A stretch of 64,000 nucleotides of DNA from Gammaproteobacteria bacterium (GCA_965222615.1 CBDCUI010000009.1:576001-640000); one strand, 5' to 3'; counted from the stretch's first letter, positions 2,119 to 19,469 are shown. Notes: a model not told the origin generated them from the sequence alone. Numbers and translations: made by a program.

Positions 2119-2181
2119 GGTTTGTTTTATAACACGCTGCGAGAGTTTGCTCGCTAACTATCTCATAACTCATGAATCACC

Positions 2182-3492: not shown

Positions 3493-3518
3493 TTTGAATC
3501 TCCTATTCTTTGCTACCA

Positions 3519-5003
3519 TTAGTGATGACTGTGAACATCATGCTCATTTTGTGGTGCTGTGGATTTGCTAGAATTGTTTTGCATGTGGTGCATGGAATGA
3601 TCTACATCATTCGTTTTTGGAGTGATGTATTCTTCAACATTTAATTGTTGTTTACCAACATTTGCACTGCTTGGTAATGTATTGCCTACTGCACGCGTAA
3701 GTTCTGTACGTGCCAACCAATAATCACGTACGACTTCAAGGTAACTTTGATATGCATCGTATTCTTGCTGCTTGGTTTCTAACAGTTCAAATATTCCAAT
3801 CAACATAAAATTTTCTTCTTCTTGTGCGCGCTCTACAACTTCAATACGTGCTGGAATTAGTTTTTCGCGATATATATTTACACGCTCTTTAGTGTTAAGA
3901 GTTGCTGCATGTGCTAAACAAACCTCATTTTCAATTGCAGTATTTAATTGATGAACTTCTGCAATTGCAATTTGTAACTCGGCATTCGCACGTAACTGTT
4001 TATCACGATTTTGTGTAAAAATTGGGATCTCCCACTCTAGAACTGGACCGGTAAGCTCTGCATGATCTGTTTCTATTTCATGCTCAATGCCCACGTCTAA
4101 TTCACCTAACCAACGTGTCCAATTAGTAACACCAACACGATTGGCTAAAACATCGGTACGTGCTGTTGCAGCCACTAAATCAAGTCGTGATTGTTTTGCC
4201 AATTCGATGAGTTCATCGAGATCATCTTCATACTCTAAGGGAATCGGAAGTTGCGCAGGCGAATCCCAAGTGTTTGCTACGGAAAGCCCCAATAAGGCCG
4301 CAAGTTTCGAGCGCTTCTCGTGAGTTTCTGCGTTAGCTTCTAGCGATGCTAGCTGTGATTCGGACGCTGCCGCCCGTTTTTGTGCAAGTTCCCGGGGGCT
4401 TAAATTTCCAGCATCGTAATAGCGCTTTGCTAATTCGAACGAGAGTGAGCCTGCTTTGGCAATTTGTGCATGTAAAGCTGCAGTTTGTTTTGCCGCAACA
4501 AATTGGTAAAAGGCAGCCTCAGTCTCAGCAGCAATATTTAACACTTCCGCACCAACGGATTGCTTCATTGCAGTAAATTCAGCATTTGCCAATCGTTTGC
4601 GTGAAGATAAAGTAAGCAAATCCGTAAATGAAGTTATCAAACCAAATGTTGTCAAATTGCGTTCACCAGACACATTTGAGTCTAATGTCGCAAACGAAAA
4701 AACTGGATTGTGAATACGCCCAGCTTCATACACATCCGCTGCAGCAATCCCCAAACCTGCATAGGTAGTCATTAATTTAGGGTTATTAACTAATGCAATT
4801 CGAATTGCACTTTCCGCAGTCAGTGGTTTTGCCGTTAACGAATCGACAAATTCTTTCCTATTCTTCGATTCCTGAGCATCAATTGGTAAACCTCGCTCAT
4901 GAAGCAATGCATCCACGTCGCTTCGACCCAAGTCTTTTGGAACTGAAGTACATCCGACAAGAAATACAAACGTGATCACAATTGAATATGTAATAAATTT
5001 CAT
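3519..5003 (-). CDS. TolC-family outer-membrane efflux lipoprotein with His/Met-rich tail (copper resistance)
   Basis: Lipobox LVGC, repeats typical of outer-membrane efflux proteins, C-terminal HSMHHM...HDVHSHH; directly upstream of the multicopper oxidase. Confidence 0.85.
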   Translation of the reverse strand: MKFITYSIVITFVFLVGCTSVPKDLGRSDVDALLHERGLPIDAQESKNRKEFVDSLTAKPLTAESAIRIALVNNPKLMTTYAGLGIAAADVYEAGRIHNPVFSFATLDSNVSGERNLTTFGLITSFTDLLTLSSRKRLANAEFTAMKQSVGAEVLNIAAETEAAFYQFVAAKQTAALHAQIAKAGSLSFELAKRYYDAGNLSPRELAQKRAAASESQLASLEANAETHEKRSKLAALLGLSVANTWDSPAQLPIPLEYEDDLDELIELAKQSRLDLVAATARTDVLANRVGVTNWTRWLGELDVGIEHEIETDHAELTGPVLEWEIPIFTQNRDKQLRANAELQIAIAEVHQLNTAIENEVCLAHAATLNTKERVNIYREKLIPARIEVVERAQEEENFMLIGIFELLETKQQEYDAYQSYLEVVRDYWLARTELTRAVGNTLPSSANVGKQQLNVEEYITPKTNDVDHSMHHMQNNSSKSTAPQNEHDVHSHH

Positions 5004-5134
5004 AACACTTTCCTAAATATTTATCCATGGCGTCGCTACGCATAGAACGTAACTACAGAAAACTCAAAAAGTATTGCCAAGATCACAAGACGCACAAAAC
5101 GCCAAAGACCAAGGCTATTCGCGACTAAGCGAAT

Positions 5135-5491
5135 TTAGGAAAGAAAAATAGGGGGACGATAAAGCGGTGATAGAGTTACTGAAGTACTTGCGTCGTTATT
5201 AATATTGAAACGATAAGCAAGCTTATGGGGTAAACTTAAACCAGCAGTATTAATAATAGGAACTTGAACCATCAACATATGTAGACATAAGCATGCACCT
5301 TCATCTTCACACTGCATGTTTTGATCCTGTTTTTGATCGTCATGGCATGGCTTTCCATCAACATTAGAAATATCAACAAATTCAATCGAACCCGAAGTAT
5401 TATCTTGCAAACATGGCAGAACCCATGCAGATGCAACTGTTGTATTTGCAACAAAAACAACCATAAATATGTATAATGTCAAATGTTTCAT
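5135..5491 (-). CDS. CopL/DUF2946-like small Cys/His metal-binding protein
   Basis: Signal-like N-terminus, CH and CxxxxxCxC motifs, terminal LYRPPI; first gene of the copper operon. Confidence 0.6.
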   Translation of the reverse strand: MKHLTLYIFMVVFVANTTVASAWVLPCLQDNTSGSIEFVDISNVDGKPCHDDQKQDQNMQCEDEGACLCLHMLMVQVPIINTAGLSLPHKLAYRFNINNDASTSVTLSPLYRPPIFLS

Positions 5492-5680
5492 GACTAAATT
5501 ATATGTCTACTTTTTGGTATTGTCATATCAGTTTAAGCGCTTTTAGATTCAATGGCATAATAAACGACTTGAATAGCCAAAATATGCTACTTACTCAATA
5601 AGATCAATAGGATTGACTAAAGTTCGCCTTTAGTTAAATAAAAAATGAGATCCAGTACCATTTTTGGCTGTTAGCCTTTT

Positions 5681-7030
5681 CTATATAACAAACGAATATA
5701 ACCAACCAAAAACGGCACAGGCTAATATTACTTTTACAATGCTAATTTTGTATTTAAATAATGCAATAAAAGTAATTAAACCGATTAACAAAGAAACCCA
5801 ATCAAATTGACCTGTAAATCCTTCTGGCCATAGCACATGATAAGCGAAAAACACGGCTAAATTTACTATGACGCCTACTACTGCGGCTGTGATTGCCAAT
5901 AATGGCGCAGTGAAGTGTAAATCTTCCCTTGTAGCTTCGATTGCAGGCCCTCCAATAAAAATAAATAAAAACGAAGGTAAAAAAGTAAAAAATGTGGCTA
6001 CACATGCTGCAATAATACCTGCCAGCGGTAAAAGTTCAGGGCCGAAAATTTCCTTTGTCCAACCACCTACAAAACCAACAAAAGTTACCACCATAATGAG
6101 TGGACCAGGTGTAGTTTCGCCTAACGCCAAACCATCGATCATTTGTGTCCCTGTAAGCCATTGGAACTGATCTACTCCACCTTGATACACATAGGGTAAT
6201 ACGGCATAGGCGCCACCAAATGTAACTAAGGCAGCCTTACTAAAAAACAAACCCATTTGGGTAAGCGTATTTTCCCAACCAAATTTGAAATATAAAAAGG
6301 CCATAATACCAAGCCAGATACCAGTCCCAACAACAATAAACGAAACAAGTCTAGCCCAACTAAATTTTGCAAAACTTGGAACCGGCGTATCATCACCAAT
6401 GATCGCAGTTCCATAAGAATCATGTGCTTCGCTCGCATGTAAGCTTCCACTAAAATATTGCGGCACAATTTTAGAGCCGATAAAACCCAACACTCCAGCT
6501 GCAATCACTATTGCTGGAAATGGGATATTGAAAAAGAAAATTGCTATAAATGCTAATAAAGCCATAGCGCGCAATACATTATTTTTTAAAGCACGTGAAC
6601 CTATTCGATAGGCTGCAAATAAAACGATAGCAGTGACTGCTGGCTTAACGCCATACAAGATTCCAGAAACAACTTGAGTATTGCCATACTCCAAATAAAT
6701 CCAAGTTAACGCAATGAGGATAAATAATGAAGGTAATACAAATAAAGCACCCGCTATTAGACCGCCTTTTATGCCATGCATTAACCAACCAATGTAGGTA
6801 GCCAACTGTTGTGCCTCAGGTCCCGGTAACACCATGGTGTAATTTAACGCATGCAAAAAACGATGTTCAGATATCCAACGTTTTCTTTCTACCAATTCTT
6901 GATGCATCATACTGATTTGACCTGCAGGTCCACCAAAACTGATAAACCCGAGCTTGAGCCAATAGTTAAATGCCTCAAATAAACTAACCGTATGACGCCT
7001 TTCAGATTGAATTGGTGCAGCGTCTTCCAT
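5681..7030 (-). CDS. chrA: Chromate efflux transporter (long-chain CHR)
   Basis: Two CHR domains: LGFISFGGPAGQ...PGPEA and AALVTFGGAY...TPGPL. Confidence 0.92.
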   Translation of the reverse strand: MEDAAPIQSERRHTVSLFEAFNYWLKLGFISFGGPAGQISMMHQELVERKRWISEHRFLHALNYTMVLPGPEAQQLATYIGWLMHGIKGGLIAGALFVLPSLFILIALTWIYLEYGNTQVVSGILYGVKPAVTAIVLFAAYRIGSRALKNNVLRAMALLAFIAIFFFNIPFPAIVIAAGVLGFIGSKIVPQYFSGSLHASEAHDSYGTAIIGDDTPVPSFAKFSWARLVSFIVVGTGIWLGIMAFLYFKFGWENTLTQMGLFFSKAALVTFGGAYAVLPYVYQGGVDQFQWLTGTQMIDGLALGETTPGPLIMVVTFVGFVGGWTKEIFGPELLPLAGIIAACVATFFTFLPSFLFIFIGGPAIEATREDLHFTAPLLAITAAVVGVIVNLAVFFAYHVLWPEGFTGQFDWVSLLIGLITFIALFKYKISIVKVILACAVFGWLYSFVI

Positions 7031-7111: not shown

Positions 7112-8488
7112 TTACTCATTAGCTACAGATAACATCTCTTCACGACGAGTAAATTTTTCACGCGGCTTGCCTTTAGGTTCACCTGCAGCAACTTCAGCTG
7201 CATCAATTTTTTGCCACTGTGAATAGTTAATGTATTGCACACCATTTTCATCAAGAATTTTATACAAACCTTCTCGACCAGGCTTTTTAGACTCAAACTT
7301 ATTTACGTCTTCAAGCAAAGCATCAACAGATTCCACTGCACAGGCACGGTTAGTGCCGATAATTCCAGATGGGCCACGCTTAATCCAACCTGCCGTATAC
7401 AGACCTGGTATTACATCGCCCCCATGTTCTGTTGTAATACGTCCCGCTTCATTAGGAATCGTACCCCAACGCTTATAAAAAGGGACCCCAGAAATAGCTA
7501 CCCCATTATAACCAATGCTACGAAACAAGATTCCACATTCAATCTCTATGGTTTCGCCAGTACCTTTGGCAGATTGCTTGAACGATTCGCCAGATAATTC
7601 ATTAATCTCCAGCACTACTTTTTCTAAACACCCATCTCCTTCGAGACGTACCGGGCTTTTCAAAAAGGTTGAAATACATATTCGTGGCTTACCTGTATCT
7701 TCAGACTCTGCAAACTTCTGAAAGATTTCAACATTCTTTTTATTGCCACGTCCTTCTTTTGCGGCAAGCTCTTGCTGGCTGGTTTCATTTAACTCTAATT
7801 CCTTAGGATCAATATATGGCCGACAGTTTTCTATCTCTAAAAATTCTTTGAGTTCCTTTGATGCAAACTTTGCTTGAGCGGGTCCACGGCGTCCTATTAC
7901 GTATATTTTTTTAATCTTACTCTCAGCTAATGCATCTAGTGCATGTTGTGCTATATCCGTATGCTTTAGTTCATCAACCGATTTTGCCAAGATTCTTGAC
8001 ACGTCTGCTGCAACGTTGCCTTGCCCAATTACTACTGCAGTTTCATGCGACAAATCAAACGCGCGATCTCGATAATCTGGATGACCGTTGTACCAGCCGA
8101 CAAACTCAGTTGCCGTATAACTTCCGGGCAAATCTTCACCAGGTATGCCCAGCTTGCGGTCTGTCTCTGCTCCACATGTATATATCACTGCATGGTGAGT
8201 ATGCTGTAATTCTTCAGCCTTAATATCTTTACCTACAGTAACATTGCCCACGAAATTAAACTCAGGATTTTCGGCAATTTTTTTATAAACCTCGATGGCT
8301 TGTTTTAATTTTGGATGATCTGGTGCAACACCACTGCGCACCAGACCAAAAGGAGATGGAAGTCGTTCGATTAAATCAATCTCGACGACTAAATCTGATT
8401 TTATTAATGCTTCAGCTGCATAAAATCCACTCGGACCACTTCCAACGATAGCAACTCTTAAAGGATTTGACTCAGTTCCTAAACTCAT
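7112..8488 (-). CDS. Ferredoxin-NADP+ reductase, FprA/adrenodoxin-reductase type
   Basis: GSGPSG FAD motif, PFGLVRSGVAPDH, GQGNVAAD NADP motif, GWIKRGPSGIIGTN, C-terminal KPREK. Confidence 0.9.
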   Translation of the reverse strand: MSLGTESNPLRVAIVGSGPSGFYAAEALIKSDLVVEIDLIERLPSPFGLVRSGVAPDHPKLKQAIEVYKKIAENPEFNFVGNVTVGKDIKAEELQHTHHAVIYTCGAETDRKLGIPGEDLPGSYTATEFVGWYNGHPDYRDRAFDLSHETAVVIGQGNVAADVSRILAKSVDELKHTDIAQHALDALAESKIKKIYVIGRRGPAQAKFASKELKEFLEIENCRPYIDPKELELNETSQQELAAKEGRGNKKNVEIFQKFAESEDTGKPRICISTFLKSPVRLEGDGCLEKVVLEINELSGESFKQSAKGTGETIEIECGILFRSIGYNGVAISGVPFYKRWGTIPNEAGRITTEHGGDVIPGLYTAGWIKRGPSGIIGTNRACAVESVDALLEDVNKFESKKPGREGLYKILDENGVQYINYSQWQKIDAAEVAAGEPKGKPREKFTRREEMLSVANE

Positions 8489-8564
8489 AACAATTTTCCA
8501 AACTTTTTATTATCTTTATCAAGGAAAATACACAGCTTTAACTGTGCAGTGTACATTTCTTAAT

Positions 8565-8686
8565 GAATTTCTGATTTGATGCTGGAGCGAGGCAAAAAAA
8601 TGTTACAAAAGCGGAGTGTACACACTAGTACATGAGCATTTTGGAACATTTTTTTAACAAAGCATCCAGTGCAAATCAGGAATTCC
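8565..8686. repeat. Palindromic MITE-like repeat, family A, copy 1
   Basis: Inverted ends GAATTTCTGATTTG...CAAATCAGGAATTCC; core GGCAAAAAAATGTT...GCGGAGTGTACAC...GTACATGAGCATTTT shared with the other copies. Confidence 0.8.
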
Positions 8687-8692
8687 TAGCAC

Positions 8693-8998
8693 CTAAAAGC
8701 CTAGTTCTGTTTTGCGATCCTCTGCTCCTGGCAACGGATCCATAGGTTCTTCGATTAATGGCAGATCAGGGCATTTTTCTGCATTGATCTCAACCCACTT
8801 CTCTTGGCCTTCAGGTATATCATCTTCTTCATAGATAGCCTCGACTGGACACTCAGGTATGCATGCACTGCAATCGATACATACCTCAGGGTCGATGTAT
8901 AGCATTTCATCGTCATAATGAAAGCATGCAACCGGGCATACAGATACACAATCAGTGAAGCGACAGCCCTTACAATTTTCAGTTACTACTGTAGTCAT
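8693..8998 (-). CDS. fdxA: 7Fe ([3Fe-4S]/[4Fe-4S]) ferredoxin, FdxA type
   Basis: CKGCRFTDCVSVCP and CIDCSACIPECP motifs, as in Azotobacter ferredoxin I. Confidence 0.9.
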   Translation of the reverse strand: MTTVVTENCKGCRFTDCVSVCPVACFHYDDEMLYIDPEVCIDCSACIPECPVEAIYEEDDIPEGQEKWVEINAEKCPDLPLIEEPMDPLPGAEDRKTELGF

Positions 8999-9073
8999 GT
9001 GTTGTCTCCTATATTTCTAATGTAATTAGACTACAAATATAAAGCCGTGATAGGTATCCACGTGGAGTATGTA

Positions 9074-9892
9074 CTAGCGCTCAAATAGCAGTACTTCGCC
9101 ACGATTGAGTTCAATCCCGTCTCCGCAAAAGCGTTTAAACTTCCCATTTATATGCACATCATGGATCTCCTCAAATCCATAATCATGCAATTTGGAAAAA
9201 TACAAACGCAAAAATAATGGATGATATGTACACGAATACTCAAAACTAGGCAATATAGGCGCATTTTTTTGAAGCGTTACAATAGTACCTCGCTTCATGC
9301 CTGCACCAGTGCGAATACCTAATTCACCCACAACAATGATTGTACCTGCCAACATGTTAACCCCGGTAAAATCACCAGCATTGCCGCCTATTGCAATAAA
9401 ACCACGTCGCATAGCATGTCCCACCTCATTTTTTGCATTGCCATGGATGAATATTTCGCCGCCTTGAATACCAGCTGATTGGCCACGGAACGCGCTACCC
9501 ACCATATGTCCAGCGTCCCCTTTAATGATGATTCGTCCTCCCGACATTTCCGGCCCAACCCAATCTCCTGCATTACCATTAACCAAAATTTCGCCACCAG
9601 ACATACCTATACCAAGATGCATGCCTACATCACCATCGATGGTGACCTTGCCCTCACTCATACCGGCACCAATTAGCTTAACGTTGCTAACATCGCCTTC
9701 GATGTGAATTTGTGGAGCACCTTGCCCTGTAACCTTGAAAAAATCACCCAACTTAGCCTTTACATTCCCATGCATGACATTCAGATGTTCAACCCCAGAC
9801 TGCGACAAACTGGTGAATGTCGCAGGGCTGATCACTTCCGCCTCTAACGGGACTTCAGGTGATGAATACAGTTCAAGATGGGTAACAGACAT
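9074..9892 (-). CDS. fhcC: Formylmethanofuran dehydrogenase / Fhc subunit C
   Basis: GxxMxxGxIxVxG beta-helix repeats; position in the B-A-D-C operon. Confidence 0.92.
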   Translation of the reverse strand: MSVTHLELYSSPEVPLEAEVISPATFTSLSQSGVEHLNVMHGNVKAKLGDFFKVTGQGAPQIHIEGDVSNVKLIGAGMSEGKVTIDGDVGMHLGIGMSGGEILVNGNAGDWVGPEMSGGRIIIKGDAGHMVGSAFRGQSAGIQGGEIFIHGNAKNEVGHAMRRGFIAIGGNAGDFTGVNMLAGTIIVVGELGIRTGAGMKRGTIVTLQKNAPILPSFEYSCTYHPLFLRLYFSKLHDYGFEEIHDVHINGKFKRFCGDGIELNRGEVLLFER

Positions 9893-9943
9893 ATTTAAAT
9901 TTATTTTTAATTATTTTTTATATCTTTATATTTTTACTATTAT

Positions 9944-10849
9944 TTATATATCTCTGCTTTTGCCATTGGCGATTTCATGTAGATGGAATTTGTACTTACC
10001 TAAATTACCGCCATAATTGCCCGCAGTGATCATTAACGCCCCTTTATCTGCTGCAGCTTGCATGCCACGACGCATTGATTCTTTAATAGCCTCTATGTTT
10101 AAGCCATCGACCACTATTTCGTATACGGCCTCTACATTTTCTGGCACGATCGAATTCTTGGACACTGCGCGTAGCGTAGGGCAGTAGGCATCATTCGTTG
10201 AGGCAATCATGCCTTTATATTTAGAACCCACTTTACTTCCGGACCGTACTAGCCCTTGAGGGAAAGGGAGAAAAACACCTGCTACATCGCGCATGGCATT
10301 TGCTGCGGCCATCGCTGCACGTAATGTAGAGCTCTTGCGCGGTCCAAATATTATTAAATTACCACCACCTACCGCAGGTTGAATCCCAAATTGGTCATCA
10401 ACTAAAAACTCACCTTCCATCACAGGAATTCGCCATGAACGAATACCATCAATCACTTTACTAATTTGATATCCGTCCCCAAAGAAACGTAGCTTGCCAC
10501 CAACAGAAACCGAGTCTTCTGATTCCAACCCATTAAAACAGGCTGTGGTTGGACAAGTCATAACACATTGCCCTATGCGATCGATTAATTGGCCAGCAAT
10601 GGTTTTTGCACTCATGGTGAATAGCAAGACACTGATACCAGGACGTCCATCAGGTGTATCTTCTTCGGGAATTTCACTTTCCACTGCTGCTTCTAATTTG
10701 CAACGGATAACCGATGTTGCAAACCCTGTCATAGATGCTGCTGCTGCACGTGCCCATTGCTTGGTATCTGCAGTAATAATCACACGTGCGCCCCACATTT
10801 CAAAAGCTTCAGCATAAGTATCGACAATTTCTGCTTTTTTAATTTTCAT
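9944..10849 (-). CDS. fhcD: Formylmethanofuran:tetrahydromethanopterin formyltransferase (Ftr/FhcD)
   Basis: DTYAEAF, TPDGRPG, RIGQCVMTCPT, RSGSKVGSKY, ITAGNYGGNLG. Confidence 0.95.
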   Translation of the reverse strand: MKIKKAEIVDTYAEAFEMWGARVIITADTKQWARAAAASMTGFATSVIRCKLEAAVESEIPEEDTPDGRPGISVLLFTMSAKTIAGQLIDRIGQCVMTCPTTACFNGLESEDSVSVGGKLRFFGDGYQISKVIDGIRSWRIPVMEGEFLVDDQFGIQPAVGGGNLIIFGPRKSSTLRAAMAAANAMRDVAGVFLPFPQGLVRSGSKVGSKYKGMIASTNDAYCPTLRAVSKNSIVPENVEAVYEIVVDGLNIEAIKESMRRGMQAAADKGALMITAGNYGGNLGKYKFHLHEIANGKSRDI

Positions 10850-10867
10850 ATTACTAGCAAAAATACC

Positions 10868-12514
10868 TTATGCCTTAGGGGCGACAGGAATTATTTCATG
10901 TTTATGTAAGTAGTCATCGCTGATTGCGTAGTTATTAAATTTAACCGAATAATAGTCTTCAAAGAACGGTTCAATTTCTTCAGCAATATCATCATTGTAG
11001 CCAGGCTTGCTATGCAGAAGCTTGCCTTTATGATCGGTAGCAAATTCATGATCTTTAATCACCGTTACACCATCTTTAATAACATAGCGTGGTGCATTAA
11101 ACATCGCTTCTTTATCTTCTTCTTCGGTATACACTGTAATATCGGCATCAGCCCCTACACCAAGCTGACCTTTGTTACTCAGACCCAATGCCCGTGCTGG
11201 ACCTGCACGAGTGATAATAGCGATTTCATTTAACGTGTACTCGCGATCTAATTCTCGCAAACTGGTTTTATCGATCGCTTTTTGATTTACCTTGCTTAAC
11301 GCTTCTTTACGATAGGCACTATCCATTAAAAGTTTTATTAGTTTTGGATAACTCATGAAAGATCCACCATTGGGATGGTCGGTGGACAACAATACTCTCC
11401 ACGGATCTTTAGAATGTAGAAATAACTCCAAACCCATTGCCCATTGCAAAGCATGGGTATATATATGATCTTGATAGGTAAATGGAATAATTCCACAGCC
11501 ACTTTCACATTCTGTATCTGCATTTATCCACTTATTAAATTTCACATTACGCAACATCCATGCTAATGGCGCATCTGCCGTCATGGCAGTCGCTTTTCCA
11601 AACATGACTTGTCCTACGTCAGCAGTGATGTTTTCGTTATCGTTTATATAATCGATTATTGAACGCACACCAGATATGGCATTTTTGTTTAGTTCGCCGC
11701 CAAAACTATGAAACTGAATGTGCGCCATGTGCACGCGTCGACCTTGTGCAGCTTTCATGGTGTCTAGCGTTGTACTGATGTTGCCGCTGTGGCCTAAATT
11801 ATTGCAGTGAATATGTGGTGGATGCGGTAAACCTAATTCATGTGCAGCTTCAATAAAACTTTCTATAACATGGTTTGGCGTAATGTCGTAATAATCAATA
11901 TTATCGTTTACATCGGTTATATTGGCATTCTTGCGACCTTTCCATAGCTCATCACTACCTACATTGACAAGCTTAAGCGTGTAGGCATGCACTGAATCAA
12001 TCCACCATGCGATGGCTTCCTTAAACTCTTTTTTACGCCCTTCTTTTAAAAGCTTGTATAGGAAAGCATTGTTACCCAGCAATACGTAAAAACCTTTATC
12101 AATCACAGGGGTATCATCAAGTTCCTCTAAGCTGTGCCTGGCGGTAATGGGAGGAACCGCTGCTTCCATCGCAGTTGTGTAACCCATCGTGGCATAACGA
12201 TAGCCCGTTGCAAATGTAGAAGGTACCACACCGCCCGTTCCAGAGCGGGTAACTGCAGTTTTGGGGTGCACATCTAAACGGTGGTCTTCCGGTTGCAATT
12301 TACGCGCTAGGTTTACTTTTGCACCAGCTATATGACAATGAATATCCACTGCACCCGGCATAACTACCATGCCATGTGCATCAATTTTCTTAGCTGAGCT
12401 TGAAACGGAATCGACGATCTTGCCATCTCGAACAAAGATGTCTTTTATTTCCCCGTCAATGTTATTTGCAGGGTCGTAAACACGACCATTCACAATTTTT
12501 AGTTCAGATGACAT
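10868..12514 (-). CDS. fhcA: Formylmethanofuran dehydrogenase / Fhc subunit A (binuclear amidohydrolase)
   Basis: DIHCHIAG, HIHCNNLG, HIQFH, STDHPNGG metal ligands. Confidence 0.95.
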   Translation of the reverse strand: MSSELKIVNGRVYDPANNIDGEIKDIFVRDGKIVDSVSSSAKKIDAHGMVVMPGAVDIHCHIAGAKVNLARKLQPEDHRLDVHPKTAVTRSGTGGVVPSTFATGYRYATMGYTTAMEAAVPPITARHSLEELDDTPVIDKGFYVLLGNNAFLYKLLKEGRKKEFKEAIAWWIDSVHAYTLKLVNVGSDELWKGRKNANITDVNDNIDYYDITPNHVIESFIEAAHELGLPHPPHIHCNNLGHSGNISTTLDTMKAAQGRRVHMAHIQFHSFGGELNKNAISGVRSIIDYINDNENITADVGQVMFGKATAMTADAPLAWMLRNVKFNKWINADTECESGCGIIPFTYQDHIYTHALQWAMGLELFLHSKDPWRVLLSTDHPNGGSFMSYPKLIKLLMDSAYRKEALSKVNQKAIDKTSLRELDREYTLNEIAIITRAGPARALGLSNKGQLGVGADADITVYTEEEDKEAMFNAPRYVIKDGVTVIKDHEFATDHKGKLLHSKPGYNDDIAEEIEPFFEDYYSVKFNNYAISDDYLHKHEIIPVAPKA

Positions 12515-12664
12515 GTTTTATTTATTTTATTCTAACGAAGGGGTATTTTTTTGATTATTTAAGATACTTACTTTATCTACGTTTTTATAATTTTATTATC
12601 TCAGCAGCATTTGGTGTAATGTGAATGAACTCCTTCCTACTTCACAATAAACACAACAGGATAA

Positions 12665-14047
12665 TTAGGCTGCGATTCTGGCTTTCTTACCTTTCAATAA
12701 CTGCTTAACTCGATCACGAATACCTTCTAAAACTTGTTGGTCAGTTGGATAATGTGATTCAAATGCTGGACGTAGTGTAATTGGCACATCATCCATTCTA
12801 TATACTGTCCCACCAGTGTTAATTCCGTACGTTGCTACAGCAAATCGAACTTTAGCAATACTGCTAGTAACCGTATCTTTTGTATCCAATGAGATGATAG
12901 GAATCTTTTTCATATGCTCGATCGCGGCTTTAGGAAAATTGGAAGCCGGATCGGATGCGATAATCATGGCTGCATCCGTTTCACCACGAGATAACACATC
13001 GGTTGTGGTGAACTCACCTGGATTAAATCTCGGATAACCTCGATTGAAATTAACCCCAAAAGGATATCCTGTTTGCCAAGAGACCACATTGTCGGCACCT
13101 GTTACATTGCCATGACCACGCACGGGCTTGGCTACAAAGTGAGTAAACTCGTTTAAATCTGCTGCCAAAGACAATAAAGCACCTGAATTAAAATGGCGAC
13201 CCCGCGTCATGGTCAAGCCCATACCAAAAAACAACACGCCGTATTGACAATTTTTCATGCGATGAACTAAGTCATTTAACATTTCACGCGATACACCAGT
13301 CTCTTCTTCAATATTGCTTGCAATCTTCTTGCCTTTCACTAATGCGCGCAAAGCCCATAACACCTCGAAATCTTTACCTGGTTTTATTTGCACAAAAATA
13401 TCAGCAACCGGAGTGCTTGGTGTTTTGCGTACATCGACAAGCACTACCGTGCGGTCTTTTTTACCATTTGGTATAAACATACCTTTAGGGGTAACTGCAT
13501 AACGAGTGAAATGTCTTGGATGAGATTCTGCTGGATTGCCTCCCCAATAAATAACCAGATCAGCACGATTTTTAATCTCACCTAAGGTCGCCGTGCTTTC
13601 TCCTACGCCTTGGAATGCCATTCCAGAAGGACCATGACAAACAGAAGTTGTGGTGTCGATATTTCCATTTATCGTATCCATAATGTCGACCGCAACTCGT
13701 TGTGCTTCACATGGTGAATCACTTAAACCATATGTGATGGGAAACTTTGCATTTACCAAAATTTTTGCAGCGGCCTCAATGCCTTCTTCCAAGCTGGCTT
13801 TCTTACCATCAATGAGTACTTCCGGACGGGTATCTAGCGTATGCTCATAAAACCATGCACGCCCTAACACACAGGCTCTTTTTGCTTTGGTTATGCGATG
13901 CTCATCTAGATCGACCGTGAGTTCCATATCATCACAAACACAACCACAAAATGTACACGTAGCATCTTTAACAATTTTGATGTTCTTTTTCTGATCTGGC
14001 TTTTTAGGCCCAGGTTTTTTTTCAGTTGATGTAGTTGTTTCAGTCAT
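12665..14047 (-). CDS. fwdB: Formylmethanofuran dehydrogenase subunit B with intact Mo/W-pterin and [4Fe-4S] motifs
   Basis: CTFCGCVCDD...ACVLG (four Cys), SVCHGPS catalytic Cys-His, NPAESHPRH, RGHGNVTG. Start refined to MTET at 14047. Confidence 0.9.
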   Translation of the reverse strand: MTETTTSTEKKPGPKKPDQKKNIKIVKDATCTFCGCVCDDMELTVDLDEHRITKAKRACVLGRAWFYEHTLDTRPEVLIDGKKASLEEGIEAAAKILVNAKFPITYGLSDSPCEAQRVAVDIMDTINGNIDTTTSVCHGPSGMAFQGVGESTATLGEIKNRADLVIYWGGNPAESHPRHFTRYAVTPKGMFIPNGKKDRTVVLVDVRKTPSTPVADIFVQIKPGKDFEVLWALRALVKGKKIASNIEEETGVSREMLNDLVHRMKNCQYGVLFFGMGLTMTRGRHFNSGALLSLAADLNEFTHFVAKPVRGHGNVTGADNVVSWQTGYPFGVNFNRGYPRFNPGEFTTTDVLSRGETDAAMIIASDPASNFPKAAIEHMKKIPIISLDTKDTVTSSIAKVRFAVATYGINTGGTVYRMDDVPITLRPAFESHYPTDQQVLEGIRDRVKQLLKGKKARIAA

Positions 14048-14079
14048 AAAAAATATTCCAACTATCAATAATTACTTAA

Positions 14080-14424
14080 TTACCTAGCCTTAGAGACTAC
14101 GACTTCCATGTGCTTCGACAATGGCATACCAGTACCTGCCGTATCAGAAGCCATTAATTGACTCGACGGTGGGCCGTATGGAATAAATATCACACCTTGC
14201 GGCAAATCCGCATCCTTTTTTGAAATACAACTGACTACTGTCTGCCCAACTTCTGATTTCAAACGTATTTTATCGCCATCCTTAAGTTTAAGACGCCTCA
14301 TATCTTTTTCGTTCAATTCCGCGGTGGAGGTAACTTTTTTGTATTCATCCTTTAGTTTACCTTCATTTAATGACGTACCCTGCGATTGCGAACGCCCCGG
14401 TATCAATATCATGGTCTCCGCCAT
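14080..14424 (-). CDS. fwdD: Formylmethanofuran dehydrogenase subunit D (molybdopterin dinucleotide-binding domain)
   Basis: LIPGRSxxQG N-terminus, FIPYGP, TAGTGMPxSK; immediately upstream of fwdB. Confidence 0.85.
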   Translation of the reverse strand: MAETMILIPGRSQSQGTSLNEGKLKDEYKKVTSTAELNEKDMRRLKLKDGDKIRLKSEVGQTVVSCISKKDADLPQGVIFIPYGPPSSQLMASDTAGTGMPLSKHMEVVVSKAR

Positions 14425-14923: not shown

Positions 14924-15196
14924 ATGCCTAAGTACATCATTGAACGCGAAATTCCTGGTGCTGGAAATTTGACTACCGCTGAGTTGCAAGGAATCTCACA
15001 AAAATCGTGCAGTATTTTACAAAATATGGGTCCGCAAATTCAGTGGGTAGAAAGCGTAGTAACCGATGACAAAGTTTACTGCACCTATATTGCTCCTAAT
15101 GAAGAAGAGATTCGTAAACATGCCGATGAAGGTGGATTCCCTGCAAACAAGATTGCAGAAATAAAGGGGATGATTGACCCTACTACAGCAGAATAA
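14924..15196 (+). CDS. DUF4242 family small protein
   Basis: MPKYIIEREIPGAG...DKVYCTYIAP...HAxxGGFPAN; GGAGG RBS. Confidence 0.85.
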   Translation: MPKYIIEREIPGAGNLTTAELQGISQKSCSILQNMGPQIQWVESVVTDDKVYCTYIAPNEEEIRKHADEGGFPANKIAEIKGMIDPTTAE

Positions 15197-15609: not shown

Positions 15610-15900
15610 TTAAGGACTACCGAAGATACAGCCTGACTTCGTTATGACTATAGGAAAATCACCAAGATCTCGCATAACTTGCGCAGTATTATAATTTTCT
15701 AACATTGTTTTTACTTCTTCAGCTTGAAGGCCTTCGATAGACTCATGCATAACACGTAAAACATAAGTTTTAGTGTTTTCCGTTACGTTAAAATTTATGC
15801 TTTCCTGCATTTCATGTTCCCACTGCTCAATGATCGCATTAACAAAATTTGCTGCAAGATAGGCTTGGATAGAACTGACTATATCAATAGCATAAGACAT
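15610..15900 (-). CDS. Hypothetical protein, last gene of the mto operon
   Basis: 96-aa ORF 11 bp after the TlpA gene, same strand. Confidence 0.65.
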   Translation of the reverse strand: MSYAIDIVSSIQAYLAANFVNAIIEQWEHEMQESINFNVTENTKTYVLRVMHESIEGLQAEEVKTMLENYNTAQVMRDLGDFPIVITKSGCIFGSP

Positions 15901-15911
15901 TCAAAACATTT

Positions 15912-16565
15912 TTAGTTTGGAAGCATTCGCTCGAATACCTTTGGAATCTCACAGTTCCATCCTATTGATTCTTTAAGATAGGCAAAAAAAGACTTCTTCT
16001 CTTCTGATTTTATTTGGTCTGTTTGCGTCCCCTCATTGCTAGCCATTCGCTCATAACCAACTAGCAATCCATCTATGAAATTTATCATCTCTGGTGAATC
16101 CCATTCACGCTCACCAACGGCCTTATAAACTATCTTTCCATCAGGATCGATTAAATAGGTAGTTGGCAAACCTCGCACTTCCCAACTCGCTAGGCTCATA
16201 TCCTTATCTAAAAGAATCGTAAACGAGACAGGTACAGACTTTAAGAACTTTTTGACACCAGCCAAACTAGGACCCACGTGGACACCAACTACTTCTAGCC
16301 CACGGTTATTAAGTTGTTTGTAGAGATTATCCATTGCGGGCATCTCTTCTCTACACGGCGCACACCAGGTTGCCCAAAAGTTGAGTAATACGAATCTCCC
16401 TTTGAAATCTTCCAAACTAATTTTTCCACCTTTAACTGAATCGAGATTAAATCCATTTGCGCGAGGCGTACCTGCAACAGGATCCATAGGCTCAACCGCA
16501 GCTGCAATATCCATAACCATTAGCATACATACAGCAAACAAAAAGAAACTCTTTAAATTAAGCAT
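15912..16565 (-). CDS. TlpA/ResA-like thiol-disulfide oxidoreductase
   Basis: NFWATWCAPCREEMP, GLPTT; N-terminal signal. Confidence 0.92.
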   Translation of the reverse strand: MLNLKSFFLFAVCMLMVMDIAAAVEPMDPVAGTPRANGFNLDSVKGGKISLEDFKGRFVLLNFWATWCAPCREEMPAMDNLYKQLNNRGLEVVGVHVGPSLAGVKKFLKSVPVSFTILLDKDMSLASWEVRGLPTTYLIDPDGKIVYKAVGEREWDSPEMINFIDGLLVGYERMASNEGTQTDQIKSEEKKSFFAYLKESIGWNCEIPKVFERMLPN

Positions 16566-16649
16566 TGTTGCATTTCCCTCTAGCTGGCAATTTACACTAT
16601 TAATCTATATGGCTTGGATCAAAATTTTAGCAATTAGTTCGTCACTGAT

Positions 16650-17213
16650 TTAGTGATTATACCGAGATACTTTGAGGTCTTTACTATCTAAAAGTGCCCG
16701 TAAAAAATCGATCATAAAAGGCGAGTTCCATACACGTGTACCCACAGCACGATAACGTATATTCCCATCAGGCCCAACAATAAATGATGTAGGTAATACT
16801 GGTATGCCCCATTCACCCAGCTGCAACTCCATATCCACTAATACTGGATAGGTAATTTCATTAAGCTCGACAACAGAATGTACCCCATCGATATTATCAC
16901 CGGCGTGGATAGAAAGAATCATGAATTTATTGCTATCAAGTAATTCATAGGCACTCTGCAATGTAGTCATTTCACTTTTACATACATTGCATGACATCGC
17001 CCAAAAATTCACCAATACAAACTTACCACGAAAGTCATTCAGCTCATGTTGTTCGCCGGCTATATCAAATAACTTAAAGTTCTGTGCTTGTACATTAGGG
17101 GGATACGGATCCATTAAACGTCCTTCATCCGCATTGAGGCCAAATGCAAAAGAATAGAGTATTAGCTGAACAAAAAAATGTACAAGTGTATTTGTATTGA
17201 TTTTATTTAACAT
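16650..17213 (-). CDS. TlpA/ResA-like thiol-disulfide oxidoreductase (second paralogue)
   Basis: NFWAMSCNVCKSEM, VLPTS. Confidence 0.88.
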   Translation of the reverse strand: MLNKINTNTLVHFFVQLILYSFAFGLNADEGRLMDPYPPNVQAQNFKLFDIAGEQHELNDFRGKFVLVNFWAMSCNVCKSEMTTLQSAYELLDSNKFMILSIHAGDNIDGVHSVVELNEITYPVLVDMELQLGEWGIPVLPTSFIVGPDGNIRYRAVGTRVWNSPFMIDFLRALLDSKDLKVSRYNH

Positions 17214-17265
17214 CTAGTACTTTAATCTGTTCCCGCGTGTCCGAAAGTTTCTGCTACAGCTAACT

Positions 17266-18618: not shown

Positions 18619-19358
18619 CCTTCAATATCCGCTTTTAATAAACCTTCTTCCATAAGTAAGGTTTTAATGTCCGTTGTAACCAATTCATCATGCAAAAAAG
18701 ACACACTATATTCTTGTCGAATCGCTTTTGATCGATCAATTAAAAATGCTCGCAAGACGTGCGCCATAGATCCCGTATAGTTACCTTGATCATCGTATTC
18801 CTTTATCACTAACTGCCCATATCGCTTGATGATGGGTTCTAAGGCTTTTTCAGAAGCGGTAGTTAAAAATAACCACTGTGGATCACCTTCGTCAAAACCT
18901 GCAGCATATAGTCTCATCACTTCGGGAGTATCATGCTCAGGATCAAAGCTGATACTTATTAAGCGTATTGTATTAGCAAGTTCTGGGTCATGCTTAAACC
19001 GTTCTTTAACCTTATAGAACACAGCTGTAGCAAGTGGACATCCATTTAGATCGGTACAACTACTGTATATAAAAGTTAGTAATACGATTTTGTCATTAAG
19101 TAAATCACTTAATTCGAGTTCTTCCCCATTAACACCGAGTACTGTGCCTCCACCTGCGGTATTTATCTTTGGTAGTTCATACGAACCTGGCTTAGGCACC
19201 TCATAAGGCAAGGTTGCTACCCAGCCATCTGCGGCAATCATGACTTCAGCCTGCGCAGCACGAGAACCTGGCAAAGGGGTATCCTCGTCGACATTACCTC
19301 CGCATGCCAATACAAGCACCGATAGCAGACAAATCAATATAAAATTTAGAATTTTCAT
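18615..19358 (-). CDS. SCO1/SenC copper chaperone lipoprotein (mto operon)
   Basis: Lipobox VLAC, CTDLNGCP, ISFDPEHD, MAH copper-ligand His. Confidence 0.88.
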   Translation of the reverse strand: MKILNFILICLLSVLVLACGGNVDEDTPLPGSRAAQAEVMIAADGWVATLPYEVPKPGSYELPKINTAGGGTVLGVNGEELELSDLLNDKIVLLTFIYSSCTDLNGCPLATAVFYKVKERFKHDPELANTIRLISISFDPEHDTPEVMRLYAAGFDEGDPQWLFLTTASEKALEPIIKRYGQLVIKEYDDQGNYTGSMAHVLRAFLIDRSKAIRQEYSVSFLHDELVTTDIKTLLMEEGLLKADIEG

Positions 19359-19380
19359 CTATGAAAACTTTGCAGAAACA

Positions 19381-19408
19381 ACAAGGCCGCCTCGAGGGCG
19401 GCCCTGTT
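19381..19408 (-). terminator. GC hairpin after mtoX (partial terminator or mRNA stabiliser)
   Basis: GGCCGCC / GGCGGCC stem between mtoX and SCO. Confidence 0.55.
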
Positions 19409-19469
19409 TCAACAATTTAAAGTCCTAGCTTTAGACTACTACTTACATCACTGTAACAGAGCCTGCACC

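What the first reader, a model, noticed from the sequence alone, without database searches (positions are those of the whole stretch)
7112..14424. Apparently redox-active bacterial formylmethanofuran dehydrogenase (fwdD-fwdB-A-ftr-C) followed by a 7Fe ferredoxin and an NADP reductase
Seen: a co-oriented run fwdD, fwdB, fhcA, fhcD, fhcC, fdxA, FprA-type FNR. The B subunit keeps the four Fe-S Cys (CTFCGCVCDD...AC), the metal-ligand Cys-His (SVCHGPS), HPRH and RGHxN, and a separate FwdD is present. Established: the characterised proteobacterial Fhc of Methylorubrum extorquens has a cofactor-less FhcB, no FwdD, and releases formate; archaeal Fwd/Fmd uses FwdB/D plus FwdF/G Fe-S subunits. Inference: this is a hybrid complex with the bacterial B-A-D-C layout and an archaeal-like Mo/W centre. 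It could oxidise the formyl group to CO2 and pass electrons via the 7Fe ferredoxin and FNR to NADPH, replacing FwdF/G, in an organism carrying O2-dependent enzymes; reverse operation is also conceivable. fwdD-containing clusters have been noted in some other bacteria, so the novelty lies mainly in the Fd/FNR coupling and the context.
Basis: partly seen in the sequence, partly recalled or inferred. Interest (0 to 1): 0.88.

Follow-up and report, generated by a model that had tools for sequence, protein, structure and literature searches.

The report
Redox-type bacterial formylmethanofuran dehydrogenase operon
A marine-type methylotrophic gammaproteobacterium carries, beside the usual cofactor-less bacterial enzyme, a second version of the last C1-oxidation complex that keeps the archaeal metal centre and is always encoded together with a small ferredoxin and an NADPH-ferredoxin reductase, which suggests a direct route from a bound formyl group to CO2 and NADPH.

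Summary
Window 14424..7112 (minus strand) encodes fwdD, fwdB, fhcA/fwdA, ftr/fhcD, fhcC/fwdC, a 7Fe ferredoxin and an FprA-type NADPH-ferredoxin reductase. FwdB matches archaeal FwdB over its full length (E 1e-110 to 1e-115) and M. extorquens FhcB only weakly (8.5e-15). It keeps the four Fe-S cysteines, the Cys-His metal site, HPRH and RGHxN.

The same genome holds a canonical fhcBADC cluster 90 kb away, whose FhcB has lost the Cys-His-Arg site.

Among related loci long enough to judge, 56 of 57 have fdxA and fprA after fhcC. In a sample of 400 Gammaproteobacteria, 19 of 20 FwdB-type genomes also have FprA. Two complete small genomes have this cluster and Fae, but no canonical FhcB or formate dehydrogenase was found in them.

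Best reading (about 0.55): a formyltransferase/formyl-methylofuran dehydrogenase that oxidises the formyl group to CO2 and passes electrons through FdxA and FprA to NADP+. Metal content, activity and electron path are inferred, not shown.

None of my nine literature searches found this coupling described. A 2016 opinion article states that fwdD is absent from Proteobacteria.

Verdict: a new variant of a known kind, widespread in uncultured Gammaproteobacteria. Interest 0.72.

The parts
14080..14424 (-). fwdD: the fourth, cap domain of the Mo/W-pterin subunit (114 aa)
   Evidence: NF042908 FwdD 3.7e-23 and Pfam Molydop_binding 2.9e-12. PDB FwdD chains 2ki8_A 2.4e-19 and 5t5i_D 4.6e-12. Lies directly upstream of fwdB in 76 of 77 related loci with enough upstream DNA.
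12665..14047 (-). fwdB: Mo/W-bis-pyranopterin and [4Fe-4S] subunit. 460 aa from ATG 14047; the open frame starts at TTG 14068.
   Evidence: TIGR03129 512.8 bits, cut-off 327.8. Full-length match to archaeal FwdB at 1e-110 to 1e-115. C31, C34, C38, C59, C137-H138, H176-P-R-H179 and R310-G-H-G-N are identical in 57 of 57 gammaproteobacterial rows.
10868..12514 (-). fhcA/fwdA: amidohydrolase subunit (formyl-methanofuran/methylofuran hydrolase or condensing site)
   Evidence: TIGR03121 707.9 bits; archaeal FwdA model NF042911 570.5 bits. 43% identical to the FhcA of the canonical cluster.
9944..10849 (-). ftr/fhcD: formylmethanofuran-H4MPT formyltransferase
   Evidence: TIGR03119 415.7 bits; Pfam FTR and FTR_C. 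53% identical to the canonical cluster's FhcD.
9074..9892 (-). fhcC/fwdC: GXGXG beta-helix subunit
   Evidence: TIGR03122 268.7 bits; NF042910 197.2 bits.
8693..8998 (-). fdxA: 7Fe ([3Fe-4S][4Fe-4S]) ferredoxin of the Azotobacter FdI type (101 aa), the proposed electron acceptor of FwdB
   Evidence: PDB Azotobacter ferredoxin I, 1e-26 to 1e-28, with all cysteines aligned. NF045490 FdxA_Protbact 111.2 bits, below its cut-off of 135. A second copy, 53% identical, lies elsewhere in the genome. Follows fhcC in 56 of 57 loci, median gap 80 bp.
7112..8488 (-). fprA: FAD-containing NADPH-ferredoxin reductase of the FprA/adrenodoxin-reductase type (458 aa)
   Evidence: PDB 1lqt FprA 2.6e-112 and 1cjc adrenodoxin reductase 1.9e-99, full length. 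Single copy in the genome. Follows fdxA in 56 of 57 loci, median gap 71 bp. Found in 29 of 400 sampled Gammaproteobacteria, 19 of them FwdB-type holders.

Best explanation
**What it is.** The seven genes encode one functional unit: a formyltransferase/formyl-methylofuran dehydrogenase. It is built like the bacterial Fhc complex (Ftr/FhcD, FhcA, FhcC) but keeps the catalytic FwdB/FwdD module of archaeal formylmethanofuran dehydrogenase.

**Proposed mechanism.**
1. Ftr moves the formyl group from formyl-H4MPT to the furan carrier.
2. FhcA hydrolyses it to formate inside the complex.
3. FwdBD oxidises the formate to CO2 at a Mo- or W-bis-pyranopterin centre ligated by Cys137.
4. The electrons leave through the N-terminal [4Fe-4S] cluster of FwdB to the operon's own 7Fe ferredoxin.
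5. FprA passes them to NADP+.

The net reaction is formyl-H4MPT + NADP+ -> CO2 + H4MPT + NADPH, with no free formate and no separate formate dehydrogenase.

**Shown here.**
- Gene content.
- Conservation of all cofactor-binding and catalytic residues.
- Conserved synteny, and co-occurrence with FprA.
- Genomes in which this is the only recognisable Fhc/Fwd and formate-oxidising module.

**Inferred.**
- Metal content and activity.
- Docking of FdxA on FwdB.
- Direction of electron flow.
- NADP+ as the final acceptor.
For: 1. **FwdB is the archaeal redox type.** It matches solved archaeal FwdB over its full length at 1e-110 to 1e-115, against 8.5e-15 for cofactor-less FhcB. FwdD is present.
2. 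**The catalytic residues are under selection.** 57 of 57 gammaproteobacterial FwdB rows (72-94% identical overall) keep the four Fe-S Cys, Cys-His, HPRH and RGHGN. By contrast, 0 of 15 canonical gammaproteobacterial FhcB rows keep Cys137, His138 or Arg310. The FwdB clade also has short branches, and FhcB long ones.
3. **The sister clade uses selenocysteine.** Its three rows (two Acidobacteriota MAGs, one unclassified MAG) have an in-frame TGA exactly at the Cys137 codon. Selenocysteine is kept only in active redox sites.
4. **Synteny.** fhcA-ftr-fhcC is present in 57 of 57 loci with at least 5.6 kb downstream. fdxA and fprA follow on the same strand in 56 of 57, with median gaps of 80 and 71 bp. 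fwdD is upstream in 76 of 77.
5. **Co-occurrence.** Of 400 sampled Gammaproteobacteria, 20 have the 494-520-bit FwdB type, and 19 of those have FprA at 61% identity or more. The exception is 75% complete. FprA is otherwise rare, 29 of 400 in all. Four of the 20 genomes are unpublished records (G141, G308, G296, G039). Without them the count is 15 of 16.
6. **fdxA is a dedicated second copy and fprA is single copy** in this genome. No FwdF/G-type polyferredoxin gene lies in the operon.
7. **Two genomes depend on this cluster.** G317 and G400 (single contigs, 99% complete) have Fae and the whole seven-gene cluster. Neither shows a canonical FhcB, a Fdh-alpha over the cut-off, or a metal-free NAD-FDH over the cut-off. 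Their only recognisable route from formyl-H4MPT to CO2 is this complex.
8. **Thermodynamics favour oxidation.** E0' of the formyl-MFR/CO2 couple is -0.53 V (review passage), far below NADP+/NADPH (about -0.32 V, recalled).
9. **The cofactor can be made.** MobA, needed for the bis-guanine-dinucleotide cofactor, and a TupA-like tungstate/molybdate binding protein are encoded in the genome.
Against: - There is no biochemical, metal or expression datum. No RNA run was listed for this sequence.
- The characterised FprA and adrenodoxin reductase work in the opposite direction, from NADPH to ferredoxin (abstract of PMC6208970 in the listing, plus recalled knowledge).
- The low-potential [4Fe-4S] cluster of Azotobacter-type 7Fe ferredoxins (about -0.65 V, recalled) would be a poor acceptor. 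Only the [3Fe-4S] cluster (about -0.42 V, recalled) fits.
- The gap between fdxA and fprA in the window is 204 bp. It contains a weak terminator-like and a weak promoter-like site, so co-transcription of fprA is not assured.
- One of the 57 loci (L062) has H4MPT-pathway genes after fhcC instead of fdxA-fprA.
- The window's genome also has an NAD-linked FDH and an FDH3-type enzyme. The cluster is therefore not needed for formate oxidation in this organism.
- The related loci are kin, and the module may spread as a block, so the counts overstate independence.
Confidence: 0.55

Rival explanations
1. FwdBD is an active dehydrogenase that reduces FdxA, but the reduced ferredoxin is the product. It feeds other ferredoxin-dependent reactions, and FprA only balances the ferredoxin and NADPH pools in either direction.
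For: Archaeal Fwd enzymes working in the oxidative direction are thought to reduce ferredoxin (review passage). fprA may have its own promoter. Characterised FprA enzymes run from NADPH to ferredoxin (listing abstract).
Against: fprA is as tightly linked as fdxA: 56 of 57 loci, median gap 71 bp. It is almost confined to FwdB-type genomes. No other ferredoxin-consuming enzyme is conserved in the cluster.
Confidence: 0.17
2. The system runs in reverse. NADPH reduces FdxA through FprA, and FwdBD-FhcA fixes CO2 as formyl-methylofuran, or makes formate, for assimilation. Alternatively, FprA-FdxA only keeps the Mo/W centre reduced and protected in an aerobic cell.
For: The known physiological direction of FprA and adrenodoxin reductase is NADPH to ferredoxin (listing; recalled). 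Archaeal Fwd is reversible. Several carriers are labelled as sulfur-oxidising symbiont lineages (record titles).
Against: CO2 reduction to formyl-MFR at -0.53 V from NADPH (about -0.32 V, recalled) is strongly uphill without bifurcation or an ion gradient, and nothing of that kind is encoded in the operon. All five carriers examined have Fae, the entry enzyme of the oxidative direction.
Confidence: 0.1
3. fdxA-fprA is a conserved neighbour with an unrelated housekeeping role, and the true redox partner of FwdB is encoded elsewhere.
For: The 7Fe FdxA and ferredoxin reductases are general electron carriers. One locus (L062) lacks them at this position. The complex prediction gave no verdict, which counts neither way.
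Against: The genome already has another FdxA copy. Adjacency holds from 92% down to 72% FwdB identity in 56 of 57 loci. FprA is present in 19 of 20 FwdB-type genomes, against 10 of the other 380. In three of those ten (G204, G361, G381), fprA again lies beside an FhcB/FwdB-like gene.
Confidence: 0.1
4. FwdBD is a cofactor-less scaffold as in Fhc, and the complex releases formate.
For: This is the only biochemically characterised bacterial precedent.
Against: All ligand and catalytic residues, and FwdD, are conserved in 57 of 57 rows, while true scaffolds have lost them in 15 of 15. A selenocysteine codon occupies the same site in the sister clade. Most carriers already have a canonical Fhc: 15 of 20.
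Confidence: 0.05

Closest known systems
Archaeal tungsten/molybdenum formylmethanofuran dehydrogenase (FwdABCDFG, M. wolfeii, PDB 5T5I; relatives 8RJA, 7BKB)
   Same: FwdB carries the [4Fe-4S] Cys motif, the Cys-His-Arg active site and the HPRH and RGHxN motifs. FwdD is a separate cap domain. The FwdA amidohydrolase and FwdC are present. The FwdB match is full length at 2.2e-110.
   Different: - The operon has no FwdF/G polyferredoxin, Hdr module or F420 reductase. It has a single 7Fe ferredoxin and an FprA-type NADPH reductase instead.
- A formyltransferase gene sits inside the cluster.
- The host is an aerobe with four haem-copper oxidase homologues.
- The direction is expected to be oxidative.
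Formyltransferase/hydrolase complex FhcABCD of Methylorubrum extorquens (PDB 6S6Y)
   Same: The gene order is B-A-D(ftr)-C, with Ftr encoded as part of the unit. It belongs to the H4MPT-linked formaldehyde oxidation pathway of a methylotroph.
   Different: Fhc has no FwdD. Its FhcB lacks the Fe-S domain, Cys118, His119 and Arg288, and the complex releases formate (passages). Here all of these are present. The FhcB match is only 8.5e-15 over the C-terminal half. The same genome has a separate canonical fhcBADC.
F420-reducing formylmethanofuran dehydrogenase of Ca. Ethanoperedens thermophilum (Lemaire et al. 2024; PDB 8RJA is the likely entry, linkage recalled)
   Same: It is a precedent for an Fwd core that works oxidatively and is wired to a non-canonical electron-output module (review passage). 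FwdB matches at 1.4e-113.
   Different: The acceptor there is F420, through a bound reductase, in an anaerobic archaeon. Here the proposed output is a soluble 7Fe ferredoxin plus FprA to NADP+, in aerobic bacteria.
M. tuberculosis FprA with 7Fe ferredoxin FdxA; adrenodoxin reductase with adrenodoxin
   Same: The reductase fold and length are the same (1lqt 2.6e-112, 1cjc 1.9e-99). It pairs with a small ferredoxin.
   Different: Those systems carry electrons from NADPH to P450s (listing abstract). Here the pair is encoded behind a dehydrogenase and is proposed to run towards NADP+.

Membership tests
Formylmethanofuran dehydrogenase (Fwd/Fmd) | B subunit with the N-terminal [4Fe-4S] motif CxxCxxxC...C | tested here: met
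   C31, C34, C38 and C59 align with archaeal FwdB. They are invariant in 74 of 74 rows of alignment A1.
Formylmethanofuran dehydrogenase (Fwd/Fmd) | Metal-ligand Cys/Sec followed by His, and the catalytic Arg (Cys118, His119, Arg288 of M. wolfeii FwdB, as named) | tested here: met
   SVCHGPS and VRGHGNV align with the corresponding archaeal segments. Conserved in 57 of 57 gammaproteobacterial rows and 15 of 15 archaeal rows.
Formylmethanofuran dehydrogenase (Fwd/Fmd) | Separate or fused FwdD cap domain | tested here: met
   NF042908 3.7e-23, though the score of 82 bits is below that exception-type model's cut-off of 175. PDB FwdD chains down to 2.4e-19.
Formylmethanofuran dehydrogenase (Fwd/Fmd) | FwdA amidohydrolase and FwdC subunits | tested here: met
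   TIGR03121 707.9 bits and TIGR03122 268.7 bits, both over their cut-offs.
Formylmethanofuran dehydrogenase (Fwd/Fmd) | Polyferredoxin (FwdF/FwdG) or another bound multi-cluster electron module | tested here: not met
   No such gene lies in or beside the operon. The only Fe-S protein is the 101-aa FdxA.
Formylmethanofuran dehydrogenase (Fwd/Fmd) | Bound Mo or W bis-pyranopterin guanine dinucleotide, and formyl-MFR dehydrogenase activity | not testable with these tools
   Only indirect evidence: MobA and a TupA-like binding protein are present in the genome. No ModA was found.
Formyltransferase/hydrolase complex (Fhc) | Formyltransferase (FhcD) encoded with A, B and C in the order B-A-D-C | tested here: met
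   coordinates; TIGR03119 415.7 bits. Conserved in 57 of 57 loci.
Formyltransferase/hydrolase complex (Fhc) | FhcB without the pterin and catalytic residues, and no FwdD | tested here: not met
   All the residues and FwdD are present. The true FhcB of this genome (P0005) has Lys-Met, FPRL and SGSNA at these sites.
Formyltransferase/hydrolase complex (Fhc) | Formate is the released product | not testable with these tools
   Needs an enzyme assay.
FprA/adrenodoxin-reductase-type NADPH-ferredoxin reductase | Full-length similarity to FprA/AdR with the N-terminal FAD-binding GxGxxG | tested here: met
   1lqt 2.6e-112 over residues 9-455 and 1cjc 1.9e-99. The sequence reads VGSGPSG at residues 15-21.
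7Fe ferredoxin FdxA (Azotobacter FdI type) | Cys pattern for one [3Fe-4S] and one [4Fe-4S] cluster | tested here: met
   All cysteines are in register with Azotobacter FdI and invariant in 57 of 57 rows. The assignment of each cysteine to a cluster is recalled.
7Fe ferredoxin FdxA (Azotobacter FdI type) | Score over the NCBIfam FdxA_Protbact equivalog cut-off | tested here: not met
   111.2 bits against a cut-off of 135. It is a diverged paralogue of the housekeeping FdxA (53% identical copy).

The most novel reading that the evidence does not exclude
This is a living intermediate between archaeal Fwd and bacterial Fhc. The complex has already recruited the formyltransferase, and probably a methylofuran carrier arm, but still holds an active, oxygen-compatible Mo/W formate-oxidising centre. 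That centre is wired by a one-ferredoxin, one-flavoprotein chain directly to NADP(H). In streamlined symbiont-like Gammaproteobacteria it is the only route from formaldehyde-derived C1 units to CO2. The same lineage of enzymes also occurs in upland-soil-cluster gamma methanotroph bins. It would be the first NADP-coupled and the first aerobic member of the formylmethanofuran dehydrogenases, and a compact ATP-independent CO2/formyl interconversion module.
Probability: 0.35. Interest if true: 0.85.

Novelty: new variant of a known kind. Interest (0 to 1): 0.72.

Why it matters
**What the textbook picture says.** Bacteria kept only a dead scaffold (FhcB) of the archaeal CO2-reducing enzyme, release formate, and need a separate formate dehydrogenase. 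A 2016 opinion article states that fwdD is not present in Proteobacteria. A 2020 phylogeny speaks of the absence of bacterial FwdB representatives.

**What this locus shows.** A redox-type FwdBD, joined to the bacterial formyltransferase layout, is conserved across many uncultured gammaproteobacterial lineages. These include sponge- and invertebrate-associated bins and a USC-gamma bin. The cluster always carries its own ferredoxin and NADPH reductase.

**What would follow if the proposed function holds.**
- It adds a fourth kind of electron-output module to the three reviewed for this enzyme class.
- It changes carbon and redox budgets in models of these methylotrophs: NADPH instead of NADH or quinol, and no free formate.
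- It makes the evolutionary path from Fwd to Fhc proposed from the Fhc structure directly testable.
- It offers a small, oxygen-exposed CO2/formate-formyl catalyst of biotechnological interest.

Tried and rejected
- **Complex prediction of FwdB with FdxA** (own alignments A1 and A2). No verdict: scores of 0.01 and 0.12 against a mark of 0.32. This counts neither for nor against binding.
- **Search for RNA runs that hold the operon**. No RNA holder was listed. There were three holders from one study, none on record as RNA.
- **Promoter and terminator scan**. Counts were at or below shuffled expectation for promoters, and only weak terminator-like hairpins appeared. It does not settle operon structure.
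- **A Lys-rich N-terminal tail of FwdB as a docking arm for the acidic ferredoxin.** Rejected. The tail is present only in the window's nearest relatives and is 12 residues long in most others.
- **Separating FwdB from FhcB by TIGR03129 score alone.** This is imperfect. One canonical-type FhcB scores 409 bits (G178), yet lacks the Fe-S cysteines and the Cys-His site. I therefore used the separate 494-520-bit group and checked residues.
- **Outgroup context.** In the 16 loci found with the nearest outside representative (Acidobacteriota, Planctomycetota and one unclassified), 0 of 16 have fdxA or fprA within the fetched flanks. The coupling was not found outside the gammaproteobacterial clade, but only those 16 were looked at.
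- **Literature.** Nine full-text searches found no description of a ferredoxin/FprA-linked bacterial Fwd. Chistoserdova 2013 was not seen. The supplements of Wells et al. 2023, which may list bacterial FwdB taxa, could not be checked.

Full report

| Gene | Coordinates |
|---|---|
| fwdD | 14424..14080 |
| fwdB | 14068..12665 (the ATG at 14047 is the likelier start) |
| fhcA/fwdA | 12514..10868 |
| ftr/fhcD | 10849..9944 |
| fhcC/fwdC | 9892..9074 |
| fdxA | 8998..8693 |
| fprA | 8488..7112 |

- NCBIfam places B, A, D and C above the curated cut-offs of the one-carbon dehydrogenase/Fhc models. The small first gene matches FwdD at 3.7e-23, and Pfam agrees.
- The quoted motifs are all in the translation.
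- Against solved structures, FwdB matches archaeal FwdB chains over its whole length (9sfi_Q 8.5e-115, 8rja_B 1.4e-113, 5t5i_B 2.2e-110). The Fe-S motif, SVCHGPS, HPRH and RGHxNV are all in register.
- The cofactor-less FhcB of M. extorquens (6s6y_B) matches only residues 264-458, at 8.5e-15.
- FwdD matches solved FwdD chains.
- The ferredoxin is of the Azotobacter 7Fe type, with every cysteine aligned.
- The reductase is a full-length relative of M. tuberculosis FprA and adrenodoxin reductase.

**The established background was checked in the papers.**
- Passages of Hemmann et al. 2019 state that FhcB has Ser in place of Cys118 and lacks His119 and Arg288. They also state that it lacks the N-terminal [4Fe-4S] domain, and that the FwdD domain is absent from Fhc.
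- Chistoserdova 2016 states that the fwdD homologue is kept in Archaea, Synergistetes, Firmicutes and NC10 but is not present in Planctomycetes or Proteobacteria.
- Wells et al. 2020 speak of the absence of bacterial FwdB representatives. Their 2023 paper counts 149 bacterial FwdB hits and reads them as transfers from Archaea.
- The 2024 review by Lemaire and Wagner gives -0.53 V for the formyl-MFR couple. It describes polyferredoxin, the Hdr supercomplex and an F420 reductase as the known electron modules.

**The genome.** The window is G000:C9:576001-640000, in a 3.10 Mb assembly of nine contigs that is 99.8% complete.
- The organism is a methylotroph. It has Fae, a PQQ methanol dehydrogenase-type gene (762 bits) and a methanethiol oxidase cluster just upstream of the operon.
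- It respires oxygen: it has four haem-copper oxidase homologues.
- About 90 kb from the operon lies a second cluster, fhcB-A-D-C, at C9:485897-490550.
- That FhcB (419 aa, 235 bits, below the cut-off) still has a CxxCxxxC motif. It has Lys-Met in place of Cys-His, FPRL for HPRH and SGSNA for RGHGN. No fwdD, fdxA or fprA lies beside it.
- The paired subunits are 25% (B), 43% (A), 53% (Ftr) and 31% (C) identical.
- The operon's fdxA is a second copy. A 111-aa FdxA, 53% identical, lies on contig 8. fprA is single copy.
- The genome also encodes an NAD-type formate dehydrogenase inside the window (22407-26905) and an FDH3-type enzyme.
- It has MobA and a TupA-like binding protein with an ABC ATPase. 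No ModA was found.

**Relatives.** A scan of species-representative genomes found 530 stretches encoding a relative of FwdB. The best 80 (72-92% identical) are all metagenome bins. Nearly all are labelled Gammaproteobacteria, Thiotrichales or Chromatiales. They include Ca. Oxydemutator(aceae), Ca. Porisulfidus and the USCg_Taylor bin.
- fwdD sits directly upstream in 76 of the 77 loci with at least 450 bp of upstream DNA.
- 57 loci reach at least 5.6 kb downstream. All 57 have fhcA-ftr-fhcC, and 56 have fdxA and fprA next on the same strand, with median gaps of 80 and 71 bp.
- The exception, L062, continues with H4MPT-pathway genes.
- All 57 gammaproteobacterial FwdB sequences aligned (the window plus 56 loci) keep every Fe-S, metal-ligand and catalytic residue. 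Of 17 distant representatives, 9 keep the cysteine.

**Distribution across Gammaproteobacteria.** I used an even sample of 401 gammaproteobacterial genomes, G000 included.
- 20 genomes have a FwdB scoring 494-520 bits. They fall in at least ten unnamed families.
- 15 of the 20 also have a lower-scoring FhcB-type gene.
- A search of the same sample with FprA scored 400 genomes and found 29 with a match at E 1e-40 or better.
- 19 of the 20 FwdB-type genomes are among those 29, at 61% identity or more. The missing one is 75% complete.
- Four of the 20 (G141, G308, G296, G039) are unpublished records. Without them the count is 15 of 16.
- In three further FprA-positive genomes (G204, G361, G381), fprA again lies next to an FhcB/FwdB-like gene.
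- In G014, G161, G326 and G233 the canonical fhcB follows directly after fprA, so the two clusters stand in tandem (coordinates).
- A phylum-wide sample of 401 genomes gave only G000 and one other gammaproteobacterium at E 1e-110 or better.

**Genomes that depend on the cluster.** Four single-contig genomes of 1.7-2.0 Mb (G317, G254, G400, G052) show no canonical FhcB. All four have the complete seven-gene cluster and Fae.
- G254 and G052 have an FdsA-like formate dehydrogenase.
- G317 and G400 have no Fdh-alpha over the cut-off. Their only matches are proteins of about 780-795 aa, matching at about 160 plus 85 bits. I take these for NuoG from size and match pattern, without a test.
- G317 and G400 also have no metal-free NAD-formate dehydrogenase over the cut-off.
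- In those two genomes the cluster is the only recognisable way from formyl-H4MPT to CO2.

**Phylogeny.** The nearest representatives outside the clade are about 50% identical, and several are FwdD-FwdB fusions.
- Named relatives of one representative are Acidobacteriota and Planctomycetota bins. None of those 16 loci has fdxA or fprA.
- Relatives of another are archaeal FwdD-B fusions from many phyla.
- I built a quick maximum-likelihood tree of 54 rows that I chose:
  - the window;
  - 14 of the 80 gammaproteobacterial loci;
  - 3 Acidobacteriota-type rows;
  - 6 Planctomycetota rows;
  - 15 archaeal rows;
  - 14 canonical FhcB from other Gammaproteobacteria;
  - the genome's own FhcB.
- The gammaproteobacterial FwdB form one clade (support 100), sister to the Acidobacteriota-type group (97).
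- Archaea form their own clade. The canonical FhcB sit on a very long branch.
- The tree is unrooted, so it gives no order of events.
- None of the 15 canonical FhcB rows keeps Cys137, His138 or Arg310, though 11 keep the first three Fe-S cysteines. All 15 archaeal and all 6 Planctomycetota rows keep Cys-His-Arg.
- The three Acidobacteriota-type genes have an in-frame TGA at the Cys137 codon. I read this as selenocysteine, as in some archaeal FwdB (recalled).

**Interpretation.** The residues, FwdD, the slow evolution of the clade and the selenocysteine in the sister clade all point to a working Mo/W centre. I put that at about 0.85.
- The only Fe-S protein encoded with it is a dedicated FdxA paralogue. 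The only reductase is FprA, whose presence in Gammaproteobacteria tracks the FwdB type.
- The simplest chain is FwdB [4Fe-4S] to FdxA to FprA to NADP+. This direction is downhill from -0.53 V to about -0.32 V (recalled).
- The Ftr gene and the B-A-D-C order suggest an Fhc-like assembly in which the formyl group arrives from formyl-H4MPT.

Points against this reading:
- The known direction of FprA enzymes is the opposite one (listing).
- The 204-bp gap before fprA carries weak signals.
- The window's own genome has other formate dehydrogenases.
- There is no expression or biochemical evidence.
- The complex prediction and the RNA search gave nothing usable.

**Novelty.** Nine full-text searches found no account of a proteobacterial FwdDB-type complex or of its link to FdxA and FprA. 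Supplements were closed and subscription papers are not covered. I file it as a new variant of a known kind. It is a hybrid of Fwd and Fhc with a new electron-output module, common in uncultured marine and soil Gammaproteobacteria.

Noticed in passing
G000:C9:485897-490550 (outside the window; locus L090 9898-14551): A canonical fhcB-A-D-C cluster lies between ygfZ/sdhCDAB and a DltB-like gene. Its FhcB keeps a CxxCxxxC motif but has lost Cys-His, HPRH and the Arg. The genome therefore holds both the scaffold-type and the redox-type complex.
   Followed up: yes
L099 nt 10857, L100 nt 10857, L101 nt 9907: The FwdD-FwdB genes of two Acidobacteriota MAGs and one unclassified MAG, the sister clade, have an in-frame TGA exactly at the metal-ligand Cys position. 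They are probably bacterial selenocysteine FwdB.
   Followed up: partly
window 22407-26905 (+): An NAD-type formate dehydrogenase lies about 8 kb from the operon. It comprises a fused FdsG/FdsB-like subunit (575 aa) and an FdsA-like Mo-pterin subunit (917 aa).
   Followed up: partly
window 15610-21819: A methanethiol oxidase MtoX (761 bits) sits with SCO1/SenC proteins, a MauG/MbnH-like di-haem peroxidase and two TlpA/ResA-like thiol-disulfide oxidoreductases. This suggests methylated-sulfur C1 metabolism next to the Fwd-type operon.
   Followed up: no
window 14924-15196 (+): A small SCO4226-like (nickel-responsive family) gene lies divergently upstream of fwdD. It holds this position in the window's closer relatives (L001-L027 and L040) but was not found in the more distant loci.
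   Followed up: partly
G000:C7:45290-46213 (L097 5291-6214): A third Ftr-like gene (39% identical, 296 bits) lies between a 5-formyl-H4F cyclo-ligase and folD. It is followed by a BhcA-like aminotransferase and a malyl-CoA-lyase-like gene. This may link the H4MPT and folate formyl pools.
   Followed up: no
G000 whole genome; C7:112028-112870: No ModA (TIGR01256) was found in a 99.8% complete genome that encodes at least three Mo/W-pterin enzymes. The only candidate oxyanion binding protein is TupA-like (235 bits, below the cut-off of 400). This raises the question of whether tungsten is used.
   Followed up: partly
G014:C154, G161:C1, G326:C1, G233:C21 (coordinates): In several other families the canonical fhcB starts a few hundred bases after fprA. 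The redox-type and scaffold-type clusters therefore stand in tandem.
   Followed up: partly
L103-L114 (Planctomycetota MAGs): FwdB homologues with intact Cys-His-Arg occur in Planctomycetota bins. In the fetched flanks they have no fwdD, fhcA, ftr or fhcC beside them, which differs from the published picture of Planctomycete Fhc genes.
   Followed up: partly
window 422-7030 and 61766-62629: Downstream of fprA lie a chromate transporter, a CopL-like gene, a TolC-like outer membrane protein, a multicopper oxidase and an ABC-2 exporter. An IS-type integrase (rve) gene lies near the far end of the window.
   Followed up: no
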